64,000 bases of DNA, taken from NCBI GenBank assembly GCA_010356995.1, contig ML996689.1, positions 293,873 to 357,872 on the forward strand, read 5' to 3'. The notes below the pieces were generated by a model. It had not been told where the DNA came from and did not search any database. It saw nothing but the letters and a program-made list of their open reading frames with translations. Shown one piece after another: positions 12,628-60,028 of this stretch. Source of the stretch: Trichodelitschia bisporula. Lineage: Eukaryota. The position numbers were made by a program, and so were the translations under genes. Position 1 is the first letter of the stretch. Every line of letters starts with the position of its first letter.

Positions 12628-14748
<2,121 letters not shown>

Positions 14749-51587: not shown

Positions 51588-54040
51588 ATGGCGCCCCCGC
51601 AGTACCAGAAGCCACCGCAGGCGCCGCCGCTGTTTACGGCTACCACGCAGTCTATTGCGGCGGATTCGAAGCGCTTGGTGGGGTCTTCACCCGCGTTTTG
51701 TGCAGCGCTGACGTGTGCAGATTGCGGAGAACAAGGCTCTGGAGGATGAACTTGTCAAGGACATCAAGCCCGAGGACGCTACCTTTGCGAACGTATGCCT
51801 TCCCCAGGCGCGCCACGAGAACGAGGCTGCCCTTGAGGACCACATCCTGGGCTTCTACCAATCGGTAGCTACTGATGCGGCGCTGCGCGATGCATCCACG
51901 GCAGCGCTCAAGGAGATGGATGAGTCTTCCATCGAGTCGGCCATGCGCGAGGACATCTTCAAGTTGGTGGCTGGTGTAGCGAACAGGAAGGAGGCACTTG
52001 ACCCCGAGAGCCAGCGGTGGCTGGAGAAGGTTCACAAGAGCTACCTGCGCAACGGGCTGGGGTTGCCGGCGGGGGAGAAGCGGGACCGGTTCAAGGCCAT
52101 CAAGAAGAAGCTCAGCGAACTCTCGATTGAGTTTTCCCGCACGCTCAATGAGGAGAATGGTGGGCTGTGGTTCACGGAAGAGGAGCTTGACAGTGTGCCC
52201 AAGGATCTCGTCGCGACGTGGCCTAAGGGCGAGGGCGAGAATGCTGGCAAGGTCTTCATGAGCTTCAAGTACCCTGACCTTTTTCCCACACTCAAGTATG
52301 CGACGAACTCGAAGACGCGCCAGAAGGTGTTCGTGGCCAACGAGAACAAGTGCCCGAGTAATGTGCCGTTGTTCAAGGAAGCTATTACCCTGCGCGACGA
52401 GGCGGCGCGCCTGCTTGGCTACAATAACCATGCCGAATTCCGCCTGGAGGACAAAATGGCCAAGGTTCCTAAGACGGTGAACGACTTCCTAGGAGACCTC
52501 CGCGAGCGACTTGCTCCGGGCGGTATCACGGAGATCAAGGCGCTGCTGGAGCTCAAGAAGGCGGACCTCGAATCGCACGCGAAGAGCAGCGATTACGATG
52601 GCAACTACTACCTCTGGGACCACCGCTACTACGACCGCCTCATGCTGGAGAAGAACTTTGCGCTTGATCAAGAGAAGATTGCCGAGTACTTCCCTCTCGA
52701 CAGCACCATTCGCGGCATGCTCCACATCTTCGAGGAGCTGTTCGGTCTCGTGTTCGTTGAAATCACCGGAGAGGCCCGCGATAAGATCTCCCCGACTGGT
52801 AAGGGCAGGGATATTGTCTGGCACGATGAGGTGCAGGTCTTCAGCGTTTGGGATGATGAGGGCGAGGGCAGCGGCTTCGTTGGCTATCTGTACCTGGATC
52901 TCTTCCCCCGCCCCGGCAAGTATGGCCACGCAGCGAACTTCAACCTGCAGCCCGGCTTCATCTCGGCAAATGGTACGCGGCGCTACCCGGCCACGGCGCT
53001 GGTGTGCAACTTCAGCAAGCCGACGCCGAAGAAGCCGAGCCTCCTCAAGCACGACGAGGTTGTTACACTTTTCCACGAACTCGGCCACGGGATTCACGAT
53101 CTCGTGTCGCGCACCACGTTCTCGCGCTTCCACGGCACCAACACGGTGCGCGACTTCGTCGAGGCCCCGAGCCAAATGTTGGAGAATTGGTGCTGGACGC
53201 CCTCGCAATTGAGGGCGCTGAGCAAGCACTACTCGACCGTGTCACCCGAGTACGCGGCGGCATACGCCGAGGATTCGAAAAATAGCGCGAAGCCGTCTGA
53301 TGTCATCCCCGACGATCTGATTGACAGCATCGTCAAGACGAAGCACGTCAACGACGCGCTCTTCAACCTGCGGCAGCTGCACTTCGGCATCTTCGACATG
53401 ACAATACACTCGCCCGCGAGCCACGCCGAGGTCGAGAACCTGGCCGTCTCGGAGTTGTATAACCGTCTACGCAAGGAGATTTCTAAGATTGACGGCCCCG
53501 AAGCCGTCGATCCCAGCTCCGGTTTCGCGTGGGGCAATGGCCAGTCGACCTTTGGTCATCTGATGGGCGGCTATGATGTTGGGTACTACGGCTACTTAAG
53601 GTGAGTTCGTCCCCTGTACACCGCCCTCGAGACCGCTTCCCGTCATTCGCCACTCCGCGCCTCGCCGCGGAGGACCGTCCGTCGGCACGGCCGGGCGGAG
53701 GACTGTCCGGCTGTGGTGGCGAAAACGCGGGTTCCGGATCGGCGGTTCTTTAGCGAGCTGTCTTTCCTATCTCCGAAGGGAATATGCGCTCATTATTCAC
53801 ATGTCATTGCACATGCTAACGTGTAATGTCCGAACACACAGCTCGCAGGTCTATTCGACGGACATGTTCTACAGCGTCTTCAAAGCCGACCCCATGAACG
53901 GCAAGGAGGGGCGCCGTTACCGGCATACGGTGTTGGAGCGCGGGGGGAGCCAGGATGAGATGCAGACGCTCAAGGACTTTTTGGGGCGGGCTCCGAGCAC
54001 GGAAGCGTTTTACGAGGAGCTCGGGATTACGAAGGCCTAG
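51588..54040 (+). CDS. prd1: M3A metallo-oligopeptidase (thimet oligopeptidase/saccharolysin-like); introns 51678-51720 and 53601-53841
   Basis: YLDLFPRPGKYGHAA, HDEVVTLFHELGHGIH (HEXXH), DFVEAPSQMLENW, FGHLMGGYDVGYYGYL, FLGRAPS. Confidence 0.95.
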
Positions 54041-56087
54041 TCAAAGAACTCATGTCACTGGTTCGGTAGCTAGAATTGACTCCTTTTCGGTGTCACGATG
54101 TGATCAGCATGTCCGTCTTTACTCAAAGCGCAAGGTACAATTGCTGCTGCCTGCTATGCACCGCATCTCGTGCCGTTTAGCAGATTATCTCCGGCCATGG
54201 CCGTCTCCCTAATGCCTGTACGGTCCTGATTCCCAATCCTCGAGGATCGCGTTGCCCCCAACATCGGAATCATCATCGATCGGCATCCCAGTCAAGCCTC
54301 GCCACACCAACAACTCCAATCCCCATCTCACTCACCCCAAGTTACCGGTCCTAGTCCCCCTCACCATCGGCGTCCCCGACACCCCCCCCCCACCCCGCGG
54401 CACTCCAGCGGAGCAACTGCCGCCGCCGCAAAAAAAAACATAGCCCGTTGTTGGGACTCCGGCGCCGTCAACGTGGGCCGGCCGGTCGGGGGTCCAGATC
54501 GGCTTGGCAAGTGCCGATCGGCACGCGGCTGGTCTGTGCGGAGAACGGGGGGTCCCACACGCAGGGCGTTTTGCGGAGGGAGGGGCGCGGGACAGGGCTG
54601 GGCGGGGGAGGGGGATACTGTACGGATTACGGAGTACCGATTGCGAAAGGGGGATACGATACCGTAGCGGTGTCGCCAGGCGTGATGGTGATGTCAGGCC
54701 TGCGGCAGTGCGGCATGCCATGGCCCGATGAGCGTTTGCCGCATCGGCTCGGAAAACATGCGCGTACGTAGTACGACCGCGACAGGACGAGACCAACGGT
54801 TGGGAAGTGCTAGCGTAGGGCTTGCGGCGTCACCGCCACACAATCGCCGCGCGCCCATGCGGCGCCCCCCGGGCTCGGCCAGCCCCTGGCGGGAGCGCGG
54901 CAGGGGATGTAGATGGGCAATTTGTACTTCCCGATGGGCAATGTGGCGAAATGCCATGGTGGACGGGACGGCATTTGGGGCCGGCTTTGGTCGGATTTGA
55001 GTGTGGCCCGCGCGGACTGGCCCTTCAGGGGTTTATGGCGGGCGCGGCGGCTGACCTTTTGTTGAGCCGTGCGCGTGGCGGTGCTTGAACCCTTGGTGGG
55101 TGTGGCGAGGTGGGGTGGGTGGGGTGAGCGGGACGGCTTTTTGAGCTTGTTTGCACGGAGGGGTTTGGGCGGATGGGGTGGTGTATCGCGTTTTCTGTTG
55201 AACTGGGTGCGGAAGTGACAAATTTGATGCTATCAGATGCTGGATTCCTGTGCAATGCAATTGCCGTTGTGGAATGCCTCAGGAGCATCACTACCGCAAA
55301 GCGCATTTTCGCCCCTCGACACGCCCATCCAAATCCCCGTCGAAACCGGTCCTTCCTCCGGCCCCCCCAATACGGAATAAACTCCACACGCCCAGCGTGC
55401 ACCACGCGTGGCGAACCCGTAGGAAGCCACGCGCAGTGCATAATCCCTCCCTCTGCATGGAAGCCCCCATCCAAACTTCCGCCCTAACAAACCGCATCCC
55501 TGCGCTACGTCGGAATCGACTCCAACCGCACGCCAACAAACTGTGCGCTCAACCACCGGGCGCACCCCCGGGCGCGATATGGCATTTGCGTCCAACTTCG
55601 CCATGGCCCCGCAGGCAGGCAACCCTAAACCGTCCGGCGTGTTTCGTTGTCGTAGTTTAGTTGACGCGGCCCCCACTCCCATCGGCCAGGCTAGATTCCG
55701 CAGGCGAGGTGGCGACTTTTCGTAGGGCCAACCTCCGCCGCACGGACCGGGGGTGCAATTCGCCGGGTCGGAGGGTAATCGACAAAGGATTGAGTCTCAA
55801 CAATGCTGTACCCAATCAATTCCACACTGTCTGCGAACGTGCAGTGCTGTTCGTGAAGACGCCGCGGCTGACGATCGAGAGATATCATGTGTTCGCATAG
55901 TAAACCGACAATCCTGCCCCTGCGAGGCTGCCCATGTTCAGTGCCCCGTGCGGCTAATCCGGGATTTAGGGTTGACGTTGACGTTCACCGATCGGCCGGC
56001 CCGCAGTGTCTTACCATTTCTCCACCGAATCCGTCCCCTACCTACGTGAGCGGCGTTTCTCTTTTCGGCCTCCTTGCTGGGATGTAA

Positions 56088-57733
56088 ACTTTTAGTCTGT
56101 ACGCGCTGTCACCTGGCTGATAAAAGACCTCTCAATCGACGTTGTCTTCCAAAAACCCATTCTGTACGAAAACAGCTTAGGCGCCCGTCCCCATTTTGAT
56201 ATCCCCCTCCTCTCCCCGCGAAACACCTTCCCCGCCACCCCGAAGCGAAAAATAACAGCACTTCAGCGCCCAAAGCTCACTTACCAGAACTACTTTACCT
56301 TGAATTCGGCCGATAGACGTTACGTGGTTATCGTCTTCTCACCAAACCTTCACCTCTTCCCTAATTAGGTAACCTTCCACGCGCGCCCCACACCGCCACC
56401 CGCCGCACCCCCTCACGCTTCGAAACGACACCCAAAACGCGACTCACGTGGGGCAACCCACCCGCCCTGCCGGGCTCCCGCGCGAGCTACCTGGCAAGCA
56501 AGCCAGCATCAAAGCGCGCCAGCGGCGAAAAGCCCCCCCCAACTCCTCGCTACGAGCCGCGTGCACCGACTCCATCCTTAGCGACAAGCTATCCCGGCCC
56601 AGCCAGACAGCCAACCGACGTCCTCGGAAATCCAACTTAGTCTCGGGAGTAGCGTCCGGGCCCGCGAGAATATTCTGTTAGTCGCGCTGGCAGCGGAGAA
56701 AACGACATAAAGTTGAAAAATAAATTCCTTTTCACAAGCGCAAGCCACTTACCCGCACCACCTTCCCCCCACCGCCGCACTCTGGGCGACGATCTCCCGG
56801 AACCACGGCCAGTCTCCAGCACGCACTGTCTCAACCAGCCACCCAGGTCGCAGAGGTAAAGATTGCAAAGACATCTGTACCCCGGTCCAGCACTCTCCAG
56901 CCACCACGCGTCCCTACCAAGCACCCTGACTCCCTCTGTCCCCCCGTCTTCGCTCCACTCAACCCCTCGGCCCCACCCGTCACATCTCCCACCAGGTCCA
57001 GCCCCCACGGACACCAACCCAGTGTCGCGTTAATTCCTTAGGAAGCGCCTGGGACCGTGCAGGTGGCGTTGAGGCGTGGGAGCGCCTCAGGCGGCAGAAT
57101 AAAACCGCGGGTAGGGATAAGATATTTGTGCTGGCGAGGGTCGGTGACAAGAGGTGCCTGAAAAAGGCAAAATTTCTTGCGTTCCAGAGCTTGATTGAAC
57201 TGTCCTGACTTTTGCTGTTAATTGGATATTTGAGCCTGTCCTGATTGTTTTTCCTTTCTTTCTCATTTTTTCTTTCCAACGGGAGGCTTTGGCTAAAAGT
57301 TCGCCTTCGTTGTGTTGTTCCCGCAGCCCTGACCGCAAAAGCCGACGACGGTCGGAGATCGCTTGACCGACTAGGGTACATAGCACGCCGCCTACCGAGA
57401 GGGCACAGGATTACGATCGGAAGCCATAAAAAAACCGTAAAAGAGACGAAAGGCGATCGGATCTGTTCGTTAGATCATCGGCTAGAAAAAGGGTTCGAAG
57501 GGGAGGACGATAACGAGAGCAGCTGGCCTGGAAAGCCAGTTGCCCCTCCTGGTTACTCACCACCAGCAGAAACCCCCTCTATCAACCCCCCTCCCCCCTC
57601 CAACTTTTTAGTTTCCACCTGCTCCACGGTCCAACTGGCGACTTCATTTCCTCACCACCAACCCCTGCGGCGGTCGAGCGCCCCACGTAGGACTCGCAAA
57701 ACGAGAGATCCATACTTCACCAGCACCACTGCC
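56088..57733 (+). promoter_or_regulatory. Putative very long ATG-free 5' leader of the Zn2Cys6 gene
   Basis: No ATG found on the + strand over 1646 nt by manual reading; several local hairpins. Confidence 0.55.
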
Positions 57734-60028
57734 ATGTCGGCTTTTCGTCCTATCCGGCCCTCAGCGTCTCAGGACCCACACGAGTCTGACGCCGCACCGA
57801 CCGGTCCCGAGGGCACCACGGGCGCCACGACGCCGGGTCAGCAATCGTCGCTTGCCGACACAGCCGTGGCCATCGGCAAACAGCGAAAACGCAAGGCGCC
57901 GACACACGTTTCGCAGAATGCTTGCACCAACTGCAAAAAGGCGCGAGCAAAGGTTTGTCCTGCGAATCCTTGCTCTCCCCTTCGTGCTCTGTTCTCGCGG
58001 GCCTCAGAGCTGACGCTCTCAGTGCGACGGCGAAGACCCCGCACCGTGCACGCGCTGCATCAGCCGTGCCGTGGCAGATCAGTGCCACTATGAAGTGCAC
58101 GTCAAGACGGCCAAGGAAGAGCTAGTGCGCAAGATCCGCGACTTAGAGCACACCAACGCTCAGCTCAAGGCTTCTGCTCGCGCCAAAGATCGTTGGATCG
58201 AGTCCATCATGCAGCTGGTGGGCGAACGCAGTGCCAGCAGTATCCCGACTGGTGAACTCCTCGAAGTGCTGCGCAGCCCGCCACTGGGTTCGTCGGAACC
58301 TTCACGGCCGCCCAGACCAGACGTCAACATGGTCGACAGCGCATCCGGGCTGATGTACGACCTTGCCATGGTGGATTCGCGGTCCGATGATGGCAGCGTT
58401 GCCTTTTGGACCAGCGTAACGGCAGACGAAGGATTGGTTCACCACCTGATGGCACTATACTTCGCATGGATACACCCTGTACACATGCTTTTCAGTGAGG
58501 TCCATTTCGTGCGTAGCTTTCGCAACAAGGACTACACCTACTGCACACCAGGGATGGTGAATGCCATGTGTGCCTTGGGGTGCTGTTTGATGACCGATCC
58601 GACGGAAGGTGGCGGGAGTGGAACCAATATCCAGGCGCAGAAACTCGGTGAGCGTTTCTACCAGCAGGTCAAGCTTGATGAACGGGCCGATGAGCACTCA
58701 ACGCCCGTCTTCGCCATCACGTACGCCATACTTTTTCTCGTTGAACTGAGTATGTGTCAGGCTCGCAAGGCGACATCACATTTGCGTCTAGCGGTCGAGT
58801 CGTTGCGCAGCGTTGACAAGGCGGAGTGGACCGAGGAAGCTTTTGAAATCGTATTGTGGGGAATCCATACTCTGAACACGTTAGTTTGGTTTTCGTCCCG
58901 CTTTCATTGTTGGCCAACTACTGACGAATCCAGCGGTTGGGCTGCTTTCACCTACCAGAAACCATCTGCACCTGTCTCTCCACGCGCTCCCGTCTTTACT
59001 CACGTTCGTCTCGATGGGCCAGATCCGGCCAACTGGCTACCGTACCGCTTTCAAGGCGATGCGGGCGACAAACCACTGGCCAGCCACGCGATCGCGACGG
59101 CACGTGAGTTCGCATTGCTGATGCAAATCGTCCACGAGACCATAAATGTCTACTGCGGTAGCCGGGGAAAGGTTACGGCGCATGCCGTCGTGTCGCTACA
59201 CCGTCGCTATGTCTCGTGGAAGGACAGTTTGCCAGCGCATCTCTCGGACCACGCTGTGGAGTCGCCGGAGTACGAATCGAAGGCCCTACCGCATGTTTTG
59301 GCGCTACAGTAAGATCCTATTTCGCCAATCAGCGAAAATCTAACGTTGGCAGCATTCACTATTGCGTCGCTTTATGTCAGCTCTTCACGCCACTCCTCTC
59401 GATCTCCAACCTTCCGCCAGCCACAGCCGCCCACATAAAATCTGAAGCCCTTGCTTACGCACAGCACGGGCTGCTCCTTGCACGCCGATATTACGATATC
59501 TTCCGGACACGATACCAACCGCCCTTCCTCGCCTTCTGCCTCGTGCACCTCTCGGACGTTATGCTGCGGCACGGCCAGCCGTTGACGGCAAATGATGTCA
59601 TCACCTTCACGTTGACTGCGTTGGCGGACTCATTGCAAGGTTTCCCTGTTGTTGGTCCGCTAGCAGCCATGTTTCGCGACTCGGTGCTCGAGACTGGCTA
59701 TATGCTGCCCAAGGATGTGATCTCTATTCTGGGGATAGCATGGAGCAACTGGGGCCGGGAAGATAGGCTGGAATGTTGCGGACGGTTAACTTACGCGCAA
59801 CCGGTGGATCTCCTGGCAGAAAGGGTGGACGAGAGTCTGGTAAGGCAGTGGGAGGAAGTATGGCGCACCGGAGGGATCGATGGCAGCAGCGGAGTTGGAC
59901 GCAAAGACGGGAGGAGAGTAGGGCTGGATGGGCGGAGAACGTCGGAAGAAGAGCGAAGGGATGAACGGAACGGGGATGAAAGCGGGGCGGCGAGGTATAT
60001 GGATATCAATACCATCATGAATCCGTGA
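57734..60028 (+). CDS. Zn(II)2Cys6 transcription factor with fungal-specific TF domain (NirA-like annotation class); introns about 57953-58022, 58880-58933 and 59309-59352
   Basis: NACTNCKKARAK|CDGEDPAPCTRC..QCHY binuclear cluster; WTSVT.D..LVHHLMALYFAWIHP; YCTPGMVNAMCALGC; ends MDINTIMNP. Confidence 0.92.

What the first reader, a model, noticed from the sequence alone, without database searches (positions are those of the whole stretch)
56088..57733. 1.65 kb with no ATG upstream of a Zn2Cys6 transcription factor: candidate giant AUG-purged 5' leader
Seen: reading base by base, I found no ATG on the + strand between the ATG-TAA at 56082-56087 and the TF start at 57734 (1646 nt). The reverse-complement triplet CAT occurs about 13 times there, and ATGs are common in the preceding 2 kb. 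Equal base frequencies would give about 25. The stretch also holds local hairpins (GAGGCG..CGCCTC at 57071-57088; CGAT..GATCT..AGATC-ATCG at about 57454-57480; CAGCTGGC..GCCAGTTG at 57520-57542). Inference: strand-specific AUG depletion is expected if the region is transcribed and scanned by ribosomes, so this may be an exceptionally long structured leader under translational control. Knowledge: long regulatory leaders are known for fungal TFs such as GCN4/cpc-1, but those use AUG uORFs.
Basis: partly seen in the sequence, partly recalled or inferred. Interest (0 to 1): 0.75.

Follow-up and report, generated by a model that had tools for sequence, protein, structure and literature searches.

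The report
Long ATG-free leader before fungal regulator
A 1.65-kb stretch with no ATG on the gene's strand runs right up to the start codon of a fungal zinc-cluster regulator gene; it most likely marks an unusually long messenger leader kept free of false start codons, but no RNA data could be consulted to prove it.

Summary
There is no ATG on the + strand between 56082 and 57734, a gap of 1652 nt; the next longest gap in the window is 607 nt. CAT occurs 13 times in the stretch. None of 20000 dinucleotide shuffles lacks ATG, and the expected count is 9.4-16.8.

The run ends at the conserved start codon (MSAFRPIRPS) of a Zn2Cys6 factor identical to Trichodelitschia bisporula EJ06DRAFT_278042. 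The stretch shows no coding signal, repeat or Rfam family.

Calibration tempers the statistics. Gaps this improbable occur for other trinucleotides, 12 of them in 553 kb of fungal contigs.

In homologues the complete purge is not conserved: 39 of 40 loci have an upstream ATG within 520 nt. The family does show strand-specific ATG depletion out to about -750 to -1000 nt: O/E 0.65-0.84 for ATG against about 1.0 for CAT, with ATG below 1 in 24 of 27 loci.

Best reading, at confidence 0.5: a long, G-poor, weakly folded 5' leader purged of uAUGs. No transcript evidence was obtainable. I file it as an extreme member of a known kind, of moderate interest.

The parts
56082..56087 (+). Last upstream ATG, immediately followed by TAA (a possible start-stop element if it lies inside the transcript)
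   Evidence: context GCTGGGATGTAA. Whether it is transcribed is unknown.
56088..57733 (+). ATG-free run of 1646 nt; candidate 5' leader of the Zn2Cys6 gene
   Evidence: 0 ATG against 9.4-16.8 expected; 13 CAT; 0 of 20000 shuffles reach zero.
56119..56217 (+). TATA-like GATAAAA (56119) followed by a pyrimidine tract (56188-56217); candidate distal core promoter or TSS zone
   Evidence: Pattern scan. It lies inside the 95% change-point bound of 192 nt after the last ATG. Its role is inferred from the recalled architecture of filamentous-fungal promoters and was not tested.
56088..57050 (+). C-rich, G-poor segment (40% C, 19% G; 14 runs of C4 or longer against 1 of G4 or longer) with very weak predicted folding
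   Evidence: MFE -17 to -24 kcal/mol per 150 nt at 56088-56462.
57051..57330 (+). T/G-rich island (31% T, 29% G) holding the GAGGCG hairpin, AATAAAA (57098) and a CT tract (57235-57281); either a candidate proximal promoter or part of an intron, yet it also has no ATG
   Evidence: The overlapping segment 56855-57326 has an expected ATG count of 3.9-5.9.
57331..57733 (+). A/C-rich proximal leader. The factor's reading frame is open from 57245 (163 codons) but shows no coding signature
   Evidence: GC3 0.52 against 0.65-0.67 in coding DNA; no conservation.
57734..60028 (+). Zn2Cys6 transcription factor gene. Exons 57734-57952, 58023-58879, 58934-59308 and 59353-60028; introns of 70, 54 and 44 nt
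   Evidence: The spliced translation is identical to P0001 (708 aa). Zn_clus 24.4 bits and Fungal_trans 23.8 bits, both above cut-off.
51588..54040 (+). Upstream neighbour, a Peptidase_M3 gene on the same strand; it leaves about 3.7 kb of non-coding DNA before the factor's start
   Evidence: Pfam E 1.6e-119; ORFs; no family in the intergenic ORFs. The start at 51588 and the end near 54040 are read from ORFs, not from a verified model.

Best explanation
Most or all of 56088-57733 is transcribed as the 5' leader of the Zn2Cys6 factor's mRNA, from a distal start site shortly downstream of the last ATG. The prediction is 56085-56276 if the purge is complete. Scanning ribosomes must cross the whole leader, so any AUG that arises diverts initiation from the true start and is removed by purifying selection. 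That leaves a leader of about 1.5 kb with no uAUG. The leader is G-poor and C/A-rich, so it folds weakly and can be scanned. Shown here: the ATG absence, its strand specificity, its end on the conserved start codon, the lack of coding, repeat or known RNA, and a milder form of the same depletion in homologues. Inferred, not shown: transcription, the TSS position, the absence of splicing and any regulatory use.
For: - 0 ATG against 9.4-16.8 expected, 13 CAT, 0 of 20000 shuffles.
- ATG is the most depleted of 64 trinucleotides in the stretch and gives the most extreme relative gap in the window.
- The run ends on a start codon whose N-terminus MSAFRPIRPS is shared by orthologues.
- No GC-normal ATG-free run longer than 763 nt occurs in 855 kb of other fungal contigs, both strands, or longer than 607 nt elsewhere in the window.
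- Family trend: pooled ATG O/E is 0.71, 0.78, 0.65 and 0.84 in 250-nt bins to -1000, and 0.90-1.05 beyond. CAT O/E scatters around 1.0 (0.80-1.23).
- ATG O/E is below 1 in 24 of 27 loci, and below the CAT O/E in 22 of 27.
- The only ATG gap with local expectation of 9 or more in 553 kb of fungal loci lies -1379 to -616 upstream of a homologue of this factor, on the same strand (L053). That region has no ORF longer than 134 aa.
- No Pfam family, repeat or Rfam match in the stretch.
- Even the T/G-rich island, where ATG is most expected, has none. This argues that it too is exposed to scanning.
- uAUG depletion in 5' UTRs is established for all 242 fungi examined in PMC7889888 (passages read).
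Against: - No RNA evidence of any kind was obtained.
- Typical fungal leaders are about ten times shorter: C. neoformans median 105 nt, S. cerevisiae mean 84 nt (PMC7049704, passages read).
- Long fungal leaders are usually AUG-rich (same paper).
- The purge is not conserved: 39 of 40 homologue loci have an upstream ATG 14-520 nt from the start, and there is no DNA similarity to orthologue upstream regions.
- Equally improbable trinucleotide gaps occur by ordinary sequence heterogeneity: 12 in 553 kb across 64 trinucleotides, and AAA and CTA in this window. A genome of tens of Mb could therefore hold several such ATG gaps.
- A second TATA-like motif and CT tract at 57098 and 57235-57281 would fit a proximal TSS and a leader of only about 450 nt.
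- The family test ignores relatedness of the loci. Its control with 42 ORF first-ATGs showed O/E of about 1 even next to the ATG, so that control is a poor proxy for true gene starts.
Confidence: 0.5

Rival explanations
1. Proximal promoter. Transcription starts near the CT tract at 57235-57281 or 57330 and gives a leader of about 400-500 nt. Only that part is under selection against AUG. The upstream 1.16 kb is C-rich promoter DNA that lacks ATG through composition plus chance.
For: AATAAAA at 57098 and a 47-nt pyrimidine tract at 57235-57281. The C-rich segment has few T and G, so its first-order expectation is only 7.2 for 56088-57250 (P about 8e-4). The calibration shows such tails are fatter than Poisson. 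Leaders of a few hundred nt are far commoner than 1.5 kb (PMC7049704).
Against: It still needs an event of about 1e-3 directly adjoining the leader on the same strand. The composition-only expectation there is 11.2. CAT is not depleted. The homologue L053 shows the same kind of distal ATG-free run.
Confidence: 0.25
2. Distal start but a spliced leader. One or more 5' UTR introns remove much of the stretch, for example the T/G-rich island, so the mature leader is much shorter and the ATG absence inside the intron is chance.
For: The closest homologue clade (L002-L005) has a conserved GTACGA..CTAAC..AG module just upstream of the ATG that looks like a 5' UTR intron. The island 57051-57330 ends in a pyrimidine tract plus CAG at 57326.
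Against: A consensus scan that recovers all three real introns of this gene finds only six weak candidates in the leader, none with a good branch-to-acceptor geometry. The real introns are 44-70 nt, against the 472-958 nt needed. Introns are not under selection against ATG, yet the putative intron 56855-57326 has none where 3.9-5.9 are expected.
Confidence: 0.1
3. Typical short leader, with the whole run a compositional or chance event without function.
For: The calibration gives about 12 gaps of comparable improbability per 553 kb across 64 trinucleotides. The scan that produced this finding looked at very many windows. The purge is absent in homologues.
Against: 0 of 20000 shuffles. It is the most extreme gap of all trinucleotides in the window. 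The other extreme gaps in this window lie in long ORFs, where codon usage explains them, whereas this stretch is non-coding. The run abuts the start codon on the sense strand. The family shows sense-strand depletion.
Confidence: 0.1
4. Non-AUG N-terminal extension. Translation begins at a near-cognate codon in the 163-codon stretch (57245-57733) that is open in frame with the factor. AUGs are excluded upstream so that ribosomes reach that codon.
For: The factor's frame has 0 stops over 163 codons upstream, while the other two frames have 12 and 6 stops in 200 codons. Eight in-frame near-cognate codons have a purine at -3. Non-AUG extensions are documented for N. crassa cpc-1 (PMC5487733, abstract seen).
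Against: GC3 is 0.52 against 0.65-0.67 in coding DNA, and the codon score is 0.005 against 0.18-0.22. There is no Pfam hit. In-frame openness is not conserved: it is under 50 codons in 22 of 28 homologue loci, and the best blastp E is 0.012. Orthologue proteins begin at the MSAFRP motif.
Confidence: 0.05

Closest known systems
General uAUG depletion of eukaryotic 5' UTRs by purifying selection (PMC7889888; passages read)
   Same: Strand-specific lack of ATG upstream of a start codon. This is the explanation I favour.
   Different: Depletion is normally partial (O/E below 1, not 0) and acts on leaders of about 100-200 nt. Here it is total over 1646 nt, and transcription is unproven.
Long uORF-controlled leaders of fungal regulators: GCN4 and N. 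crassa cpc-1 (PMC5487733, abstract: leader over 700 nt with two uORFs)
   Same: A long leader in front of a fungal transcription factor.
   Different: Those work through AUG uORFs. This stretch has none, so the defining feature is not met.
Start-stop elements, an AUG directly followed by a stop codon in a 5' UTR (PMC13338717; title and abstract seen in the listing)
   Same: ATGTAA at 56082-56087 is the last ATG before the run.
   Different: It is not known to lie inside the transcript. One in about 20 ATGs is followed by a stop by chance (my estimate).
Alternative-TSS long-leader isoforms in fungi (review PMC9604717, one passage read; Histoplasma preprint 10.64898/2026.08.26.747414, listing only)
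   Same: Two promoter-like motif pairs (56119/56188 and 57098/57235) would allow a long and a short isoform.
   Different: In the one example I read (Mr-OPY2, PMC9604717) the long isoform carries two repressive uORFs. Here the long form would be AUG-free. No isoform data are available.
Homologues of the same factor in metagenome contigs (L001-L077)
   Same: The N-terminus and Zn cluster are conserved. Sense-strand ATG depletion reaches about -750 to -1000 nt, and L005, L053 and L061 are strongly depleted.
   Different: They keep some uAUGs. One clade has a tiny uORF about 26 nt upstream (16 of 20 loci). The nearest clade has a probable 5' UTR intron. Neither feature is present here.

Membership tests
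uAUG-purged 5' leader (scanned mRNA leader) | ATG depleted on the sense strand only, relative to a local background | tested here: met
   0 against 9.4-16.8 expected for ATG; 13 against 15.7 for CAT; 0 of 20000 shuffles.
uAUG-purged 5' leader (scanned mRNA leader) | The depleted stretch ends at the authentic start codon | tested here: met
   The run ends at 57734. The model translates to P0001 exactly, and the N-terminus is shared by orthologues.
uAUG-purged 5' leader (scanned mRNA leader) | The stretch is transcribed as part of the mRNA (TSS upstream of it, not spliced out) | not testable with these tools
uAUG-purged 5' leader (scanned mRNA leader) | The property recurs in orthologous leaders | tested here: inconclusive
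   The complete purge is not conserved (39 of 40 loci have a uATG within 520 nt). Partial sense-strand depletion to about -1000 is seen in 24 of 27 loci. No close relative is available; the next homologue is 48% identical.
GCN4/cpc-1-type uORF-controlled leader | One or more AUG-initiated uORFs in the leader | tested here: not met
   No ATG in 56088-57733.
Structured regulatory leader (IRES-like or thermosensor-like) | Folding more stable than shuffled controls and/or covariation | tested here: not met
   Mean z 0.06 over 20 windows. One window reaches z -3.1, or -2.46 by strand folding. Covariation cannot be tested, as there are no alignable relatives. No Rfam hit reaches a gathering score.
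Start-stop (AUG-stop) element | AUG directly followed by a stop codon, inside the 5' UTR | tested here: inconclusive
   ATGTAA is present at 56082-56087. Whether it lies in the transcript is unknown.
5' UTR intron | Donor, CTRAC branch and YAG acceptor with the geometry of this genome's introns | tested here: inconclusive
   Six weak candidates, while the control scan recovers the three real introns of 44-70 nt.
Non-AUG N-terminal extension | In-frame open stretch with a coding signature and conservation | tested here: not met
   The frame is open for 163 codons, but GC3 is 0.52, there is no conservation and no Pfam hit.
Zn2Cys6 (Gal4-type) fungal transcription factor | Zn_clus and Fungal_trans domains above Pfam cut-offs | tested here: met
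   PF00172 scores 24.4 bits (cut-off 21) and PF04082 scores 23.8 bits (cut-off 23) on P0001. The C-X2-C-X6-C-X7-C-X2-C-X8-C motif is read from the sequence.
RIP-mutated AT-rich DNA (which also lacks ATG) | Low GC, with both ATG and CAT nearly absent | tested here: not met
   The stretch is 57% GC with 13 CAT and 122 CA. The RIP-like runs in other loci have GC 15-29% and 0-5 CAT.

The most novel reading that the evidence does not exclude
This Zn2Cys6 regulator is made from an essentially unspliced leader of about 1.5 kb that has been purged of every AUG. The leader is G-poor and unfolded, and may be gated at its 5' end by an AUG-UAA start-stop element. On this reading, long AUG-poor leaders are a trait of this whole factor family (which one source labels 'fluffy'-like). 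Different lineages would then use different devices on the same leader: a total purge here, a 2-8-codon uORF about 26 nt upstream in one clade, and a 5' UTR intron in another. Leader length itself, or near-cognate initiation, would set the translation rate.
Probability: 0.25. Interest if true: 0.55.

Novelty: new member of a known kind. Interest (0 to 1): 0.35.

Why it matters
If the whole stretch is leader, it would be one of the longest AUG-free leaders reported for a fungus, about ten times the usual leader length. It would show in a natural mRNA how far a ribosome can scan, and how strongly selection removes upstream AUGs from a regulator's mRNA. It would also give a sequence-only way to predict distant start sites: the point where ATG density drops. 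If it is not leader, it shows that trinucleotide-free runs with naive P values near 1e-4 arise from ordinary sequence heterogeneity.

Tried and rejected
- RNA evidence.
- Known RNA families. Only a sub-threshold HSR-omega hit outside the stretch.
- Repeats and tandem repeats. Only short chance-level matches.
- Bacterial-type promoter and terminator scan. At shuffle level and not applicable to a fungus.
- Coding potential. 12 intergenic ORFs have no Pfam family above threshold, and codon scores are near zero.
- Structured leader. Rejected.
- N-terminal extension. Rejected as unlikely.
- RIP. Rejected.
- DNA conservation with the eight nearest homologue loci. None.
- Control for generic gene starts, using the first ATG of 42 long ORFs. 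O/E is about 1 in every bin. This shows the measure is unbiased, but many of these are probably internal exons, so it is not a true gene-start control.
- Earlier findings of this scan. Nothing relevant.
- Papers on N. crassa fluffy (PMC1460068, PMC1470807, PMC2845335). Not held, so I make no claim about that gene's leader. The 'fluffy' label comes only from a source name on homologue P0023.
- Literature searches for AUG-free long leaders and for Trichodelitschia. No description of this locus or of a comparable fungal case was found. These searches cover only the held library.
Full report
**Observation**

On the + strand the ATG at 56082 is followed by the next ATG only at 57734. The ATG-free stretch 56088-57733 is 1646 nt (A 389, C 572, G 360, T 325) and holds 13 CAT. 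The preceding 2047 nt hold 32 ATG and 32 CAT, as expected from their dinucleotides (33.7 and 33.9).

**Is it more than chance?**

- The expected number of ATG is 16.8 from base composition and 9.4 from dinucleotide content. Summing over 200-nt tiles gives 16.9 and 9.2.
- None of 20000 dinucleotide-preserving shuffles had zero ATG (mean 9.36, sd 2.55, minimum 1).
- Of 50 AT dinucleotides, none is followed by G (15 A, 18 C, 17 T).
- ATG is the only trinucleotide with five or fewer occurrences, and it is the strongest deficit in the stretch (z -3.06; the next is ACA at -2.13).
- In the window, the 1980 gaps between ATGs on the two strands have a median of 40 nt and a 99.9th percentile of 575 nt. 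The five next-longest are 464-607 nt.
- Relative to its mean spacing, the ATG gap (26.5 times) is the most extreme of all 64 trinucleotides. AAA (19.9), GGA (18.5) and AAG (18.1) follow.

I then calibrated the simple model.

- Ranking every trinucleotide gap in the window by its local dinucleotide expectation gives AAA 11.0, ATG 9.6, CTA 9.4, ATT 8.9 and TCT 8.8. The non-ATG gaps lie in long open reading frames, where codon usage explains them.
- In 55 non-redundant fungal loci (553,514 nt; only segments of GC 40% or more), 12 gaps reach an expectation of 9 or more.
- So the Poisson P of about 1e-4 overstates rarity. A genome of tens of Mb could hold several such ATG gaps from heterogeneity alone.
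- By raw length the run is still unmatched. In 855,001 nt of fungal loci, both strands, every ATG-free run above 763 nt lies in DNA of 15-29% GC that also nearly lacks CAT (0-5 per run). I read those as RIP-type AT-rich blocks; that is my knowledge, as RIP destroys both CA and TG.
- The stretch here is 57% GC with 122 CA and 13 CAT, so that explanation fails.

**What surrounds it**

- The gene downstream has four exons (57734-57952, 58023-58879, 58934-59308, 59353-60028) and introns of 70, 54 and 44 nt. Its translation is identical to P0001, Trichodelitschia bisporula EJ06DRAFT_278042, 708 aa.
- It carries Zn_clus and Fungal_trans above the Pfam cut-offs.
- Orthologues at 44-48% identity begin MSAYRSIAPS, MSAFRPIAPS, MSDYRPLRPA and MSSAFRELRPS, so 57734 is the authentic start.
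- One homologue bears the source name 'Conidial development protein fluffy'. That is an automatic label that I did not test.
- Upstream, on the same strand, lies a Peptidase_M3 gene ending near 54040. This leaves about 3.7 kb without a gene in a window that otherwise holds about 22 genes.
- Twelve ORFs of 90-187 aa in this spacer, on both strands, have no Pfam family. The one match, HrpJ at E 0.083, is below its cut-off.
- There are no meaningful repeats and no Rfam family.

**Anatomy of the run**

1. 56088-57050: 40% C and 19% G, with 14 runs of C4 or longer against one of G4 or longer.
2. 57051-57330: a T/G-rich island (31% T, 29% G).
3. 57331-57733: A/C-rich.

Folding in 150-nt windows gives a mean z of 0.06 over the 20 windows inside the run. 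The first four windows fold at only -17 to -24 kcal/mol, against -45 to -56 in the flanks. One window (57063-57212) reaches z -3.1. Strand folding on 57050-57215 gives -60.4 kcal/mol and z -2.46, with 4 of 200 shuffles as good. That is unremarkable among 20 windows. The leader, if it is one, is unstructured rather than structured.

Two pairs of promoter-like motifs exist: GATAAAA at 56119 with a pyrimidine tract at 56188-56217, and AATAAAA at 57098 with a tract at 57235-57281. Their meaning rests on my recall of filamentous-fungal promoters.

A simple donor-branch-acceptor scan that recovers all three real introns finds six weak candidates in the leader. None resembles the gene's short introns.

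The factor's frame is open for 163 codons upstream (0 stops, against 12 and 6 in the other frames over 200 codons). However, GC3 is 0.52 against 0.65-0.67, the codon score is 0.005 against 0.18-0.22, and there is no conservation. I treat this as a curiosity.

**Relatives**

No close relative exists in the protein collection; the next hit is 48% identical. A metagenome scan gave 77 loci.

My pattern for the N-terminus plus zinc cluster found a start in 40 of them. 39 have an upstream ATG 14-520 nt from the start, and L006 has none in the 239 nt available. The complete purge is therefore not a family trait, and the upstream DNA is not alignable to the window.

The family does show a milder form. 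I dropped 8 duplicates and 5 loci with under 250 nt upstream, which left 27 loci.

- Pooled ATG O/E in 250-nt bins is 0.71, 0.78, 0.65 and 0.84 out to -1000.
- Beyond that it is 0.90-1.05, out to -3000.
- CAT O/E is 0.80-1.23, centred on 1.0.
- Per locus over -1000 to -1, ATG O/E is below 1 in 24 of 27 and below the CAT O/E in 22 of 27. The medians are 0.73 and 1.01, and Wilcoxon P is 8e-6, which ignores relatedness.
- The strongest loci are L005 (2 against 10.3 in 798 nt), L004 (0.37), L053 (0.37, and 0.51 for -3000 to -1000) and L061 (0.51).
- The single ATG gap with expectation of 9 or more in the 553-kb calibration is in L053, -1379 to -616 from the homologue's start on its strand. That upstream region has no ORF above 134 aa, and it holds 17 ATG (18 listed, less the start codon) against 66 CAT.
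- My control, the first ATG of 42 long ORFs, gave O/E of about 1 in all bins, including the nearest. It shows the statistic is unbiased but is a poor stand-in for real gene starts.
- Published leader lengths (C. neoformans median 105 nt, S. cerevisiae mean 84 nt; PMC7049704, passages) are the reason I read depletion out to -750 as unusually long leaders.

**What could not be done**

There is no genome for this window. Everything about the RNA is inference.

**Explanation**

uAUGs are depleted from 5' UTRs in all 242 fungi examined in PMC7889888 (passages). The simplest cause of a sense-strand-only, ATG-only absence that stops at a start codon is that ribosomes scan this stretch.

- Taking the upstream ATG density (1 per 64 nt), the boundary of the purge should lie within 192 nt of the last ATG, that is at 56085-56276. 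With the local rate the bound is 525 nt. The distal TATA-like motif and pyrimidine tract fall inside the tighter bound.
- Weighing rough priors, which are my estimates: leaders above 1 kb in a few per cent of regulator genes, and partial depletion halving the expected count. I put the long-leader reading at about 0.5, a proximal start with a chance-empty promoter at 0.25, a largely spliced leader at 0.1, pure chance with a short leader at 0.1, and a non-AUG extension at 0.05.
- The ATG absence in the T/G-rich island, where ATG is most expected (3.9-5.9 for 56855-57326), favours an unspliced leader over an intron or a proximal promoter, but only weakly.

**Comparison and verdict**

It works like any uAUG-depleted leader; what is unusual is the length and the completeness. 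It is not a GCN4/cpc-1-type leader, because it has no AUG uORF. It is not shown to be structured. The ATGTAA at its 5' edge resembles a start-stop element (PMC13338717, title and abstract only) but may lie outside the transcript.

I file it as a probable extreme member of a known kind, with moderate interest. The decisive data are a TSS map or RNA-seq coverage and a genome-wide count of such runs.

Noticed in passing
L014-L017, L023, L026, L032, L046, L047, L049, L053, L061-L064, L073 (about 14-32 nt upstream of the homologue's ATG): In the homologue clade whose proteins begin MSFRKIRPS, 16 of 20 loci have an upstream ATG at -14 to -32, mostly ATGGC or ATGGT. In 14 loci it opens a 2-8-codon uORF; in 2 loci the uORF overlaps the main ORF. 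This looks like a conserved mini-uORF just before the start codon. It is absent in the window.
   Followed up: partly
L002:1860-1936, L004:520-594, L005:725-801, L003:5030-5094 (approximate): The four nearest homologue loci share an invariant AGGTACGA, then CTAAC, then AG within about 60 nt, directly upstream of the ATG. This is probably a conserved 5' UTR intron. Three of L002's nearest uATGs and one of L004's lie inside it.
   Followed up: partly
L053:1-2717: The non-coding upstream region of a distant homologue holds 17 ATG (18 listed, less the start codon) against 66 CAT on the gene's strand, with ATG-free runs of 763 and 651 nt. This is a second, independent case of a long ATG-poor upstream region for this factor family.
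   Followed up: partly
L027:15206-21563, L042:1617-7492, L024:2805-6301: Blocks of 3.5-6.4 kb at 15-26% GC have almost no ATG or CAT on either strand. They look like RIP-mutated AT-rich regions in fungal metagenome contigs. They are the main source of very long ATG-free runs in fungal DNA, and a trap for this kind of scan.
   Followed up: no
window 57245-57733 (+): The transcription factor's reading frame stays open for 163 codons upstream of its ATG, while the other frames have 12 and 6 stops in 200 codons. There is no coding signature and no conservation.
   Followed up: yes
window 56082-56087 (+): The last ATG before the run is ATGTAA, a start codon directly followed by a stop, with G at -3.
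   Followed up: no
window 13393-14310 (-): A 306-aa ORF antisense to the Hsp70 gene matches Pfam NAD-GH (PF10712) at E 4e-86. From my knowledge, this family is built on the long antisense frame of Hsp70 genes, so the hit is probably not a separate gene.
   Followed up: no
window 54041-57733: The 3.7-kb spacer between the Peptidase_M3 gene and the transcription factor is the longest gene-free stretch I saw in a window of about 22 genes. Its GC skew alternates in blocks of about 0.5-1 kb.
   Followed up: partly
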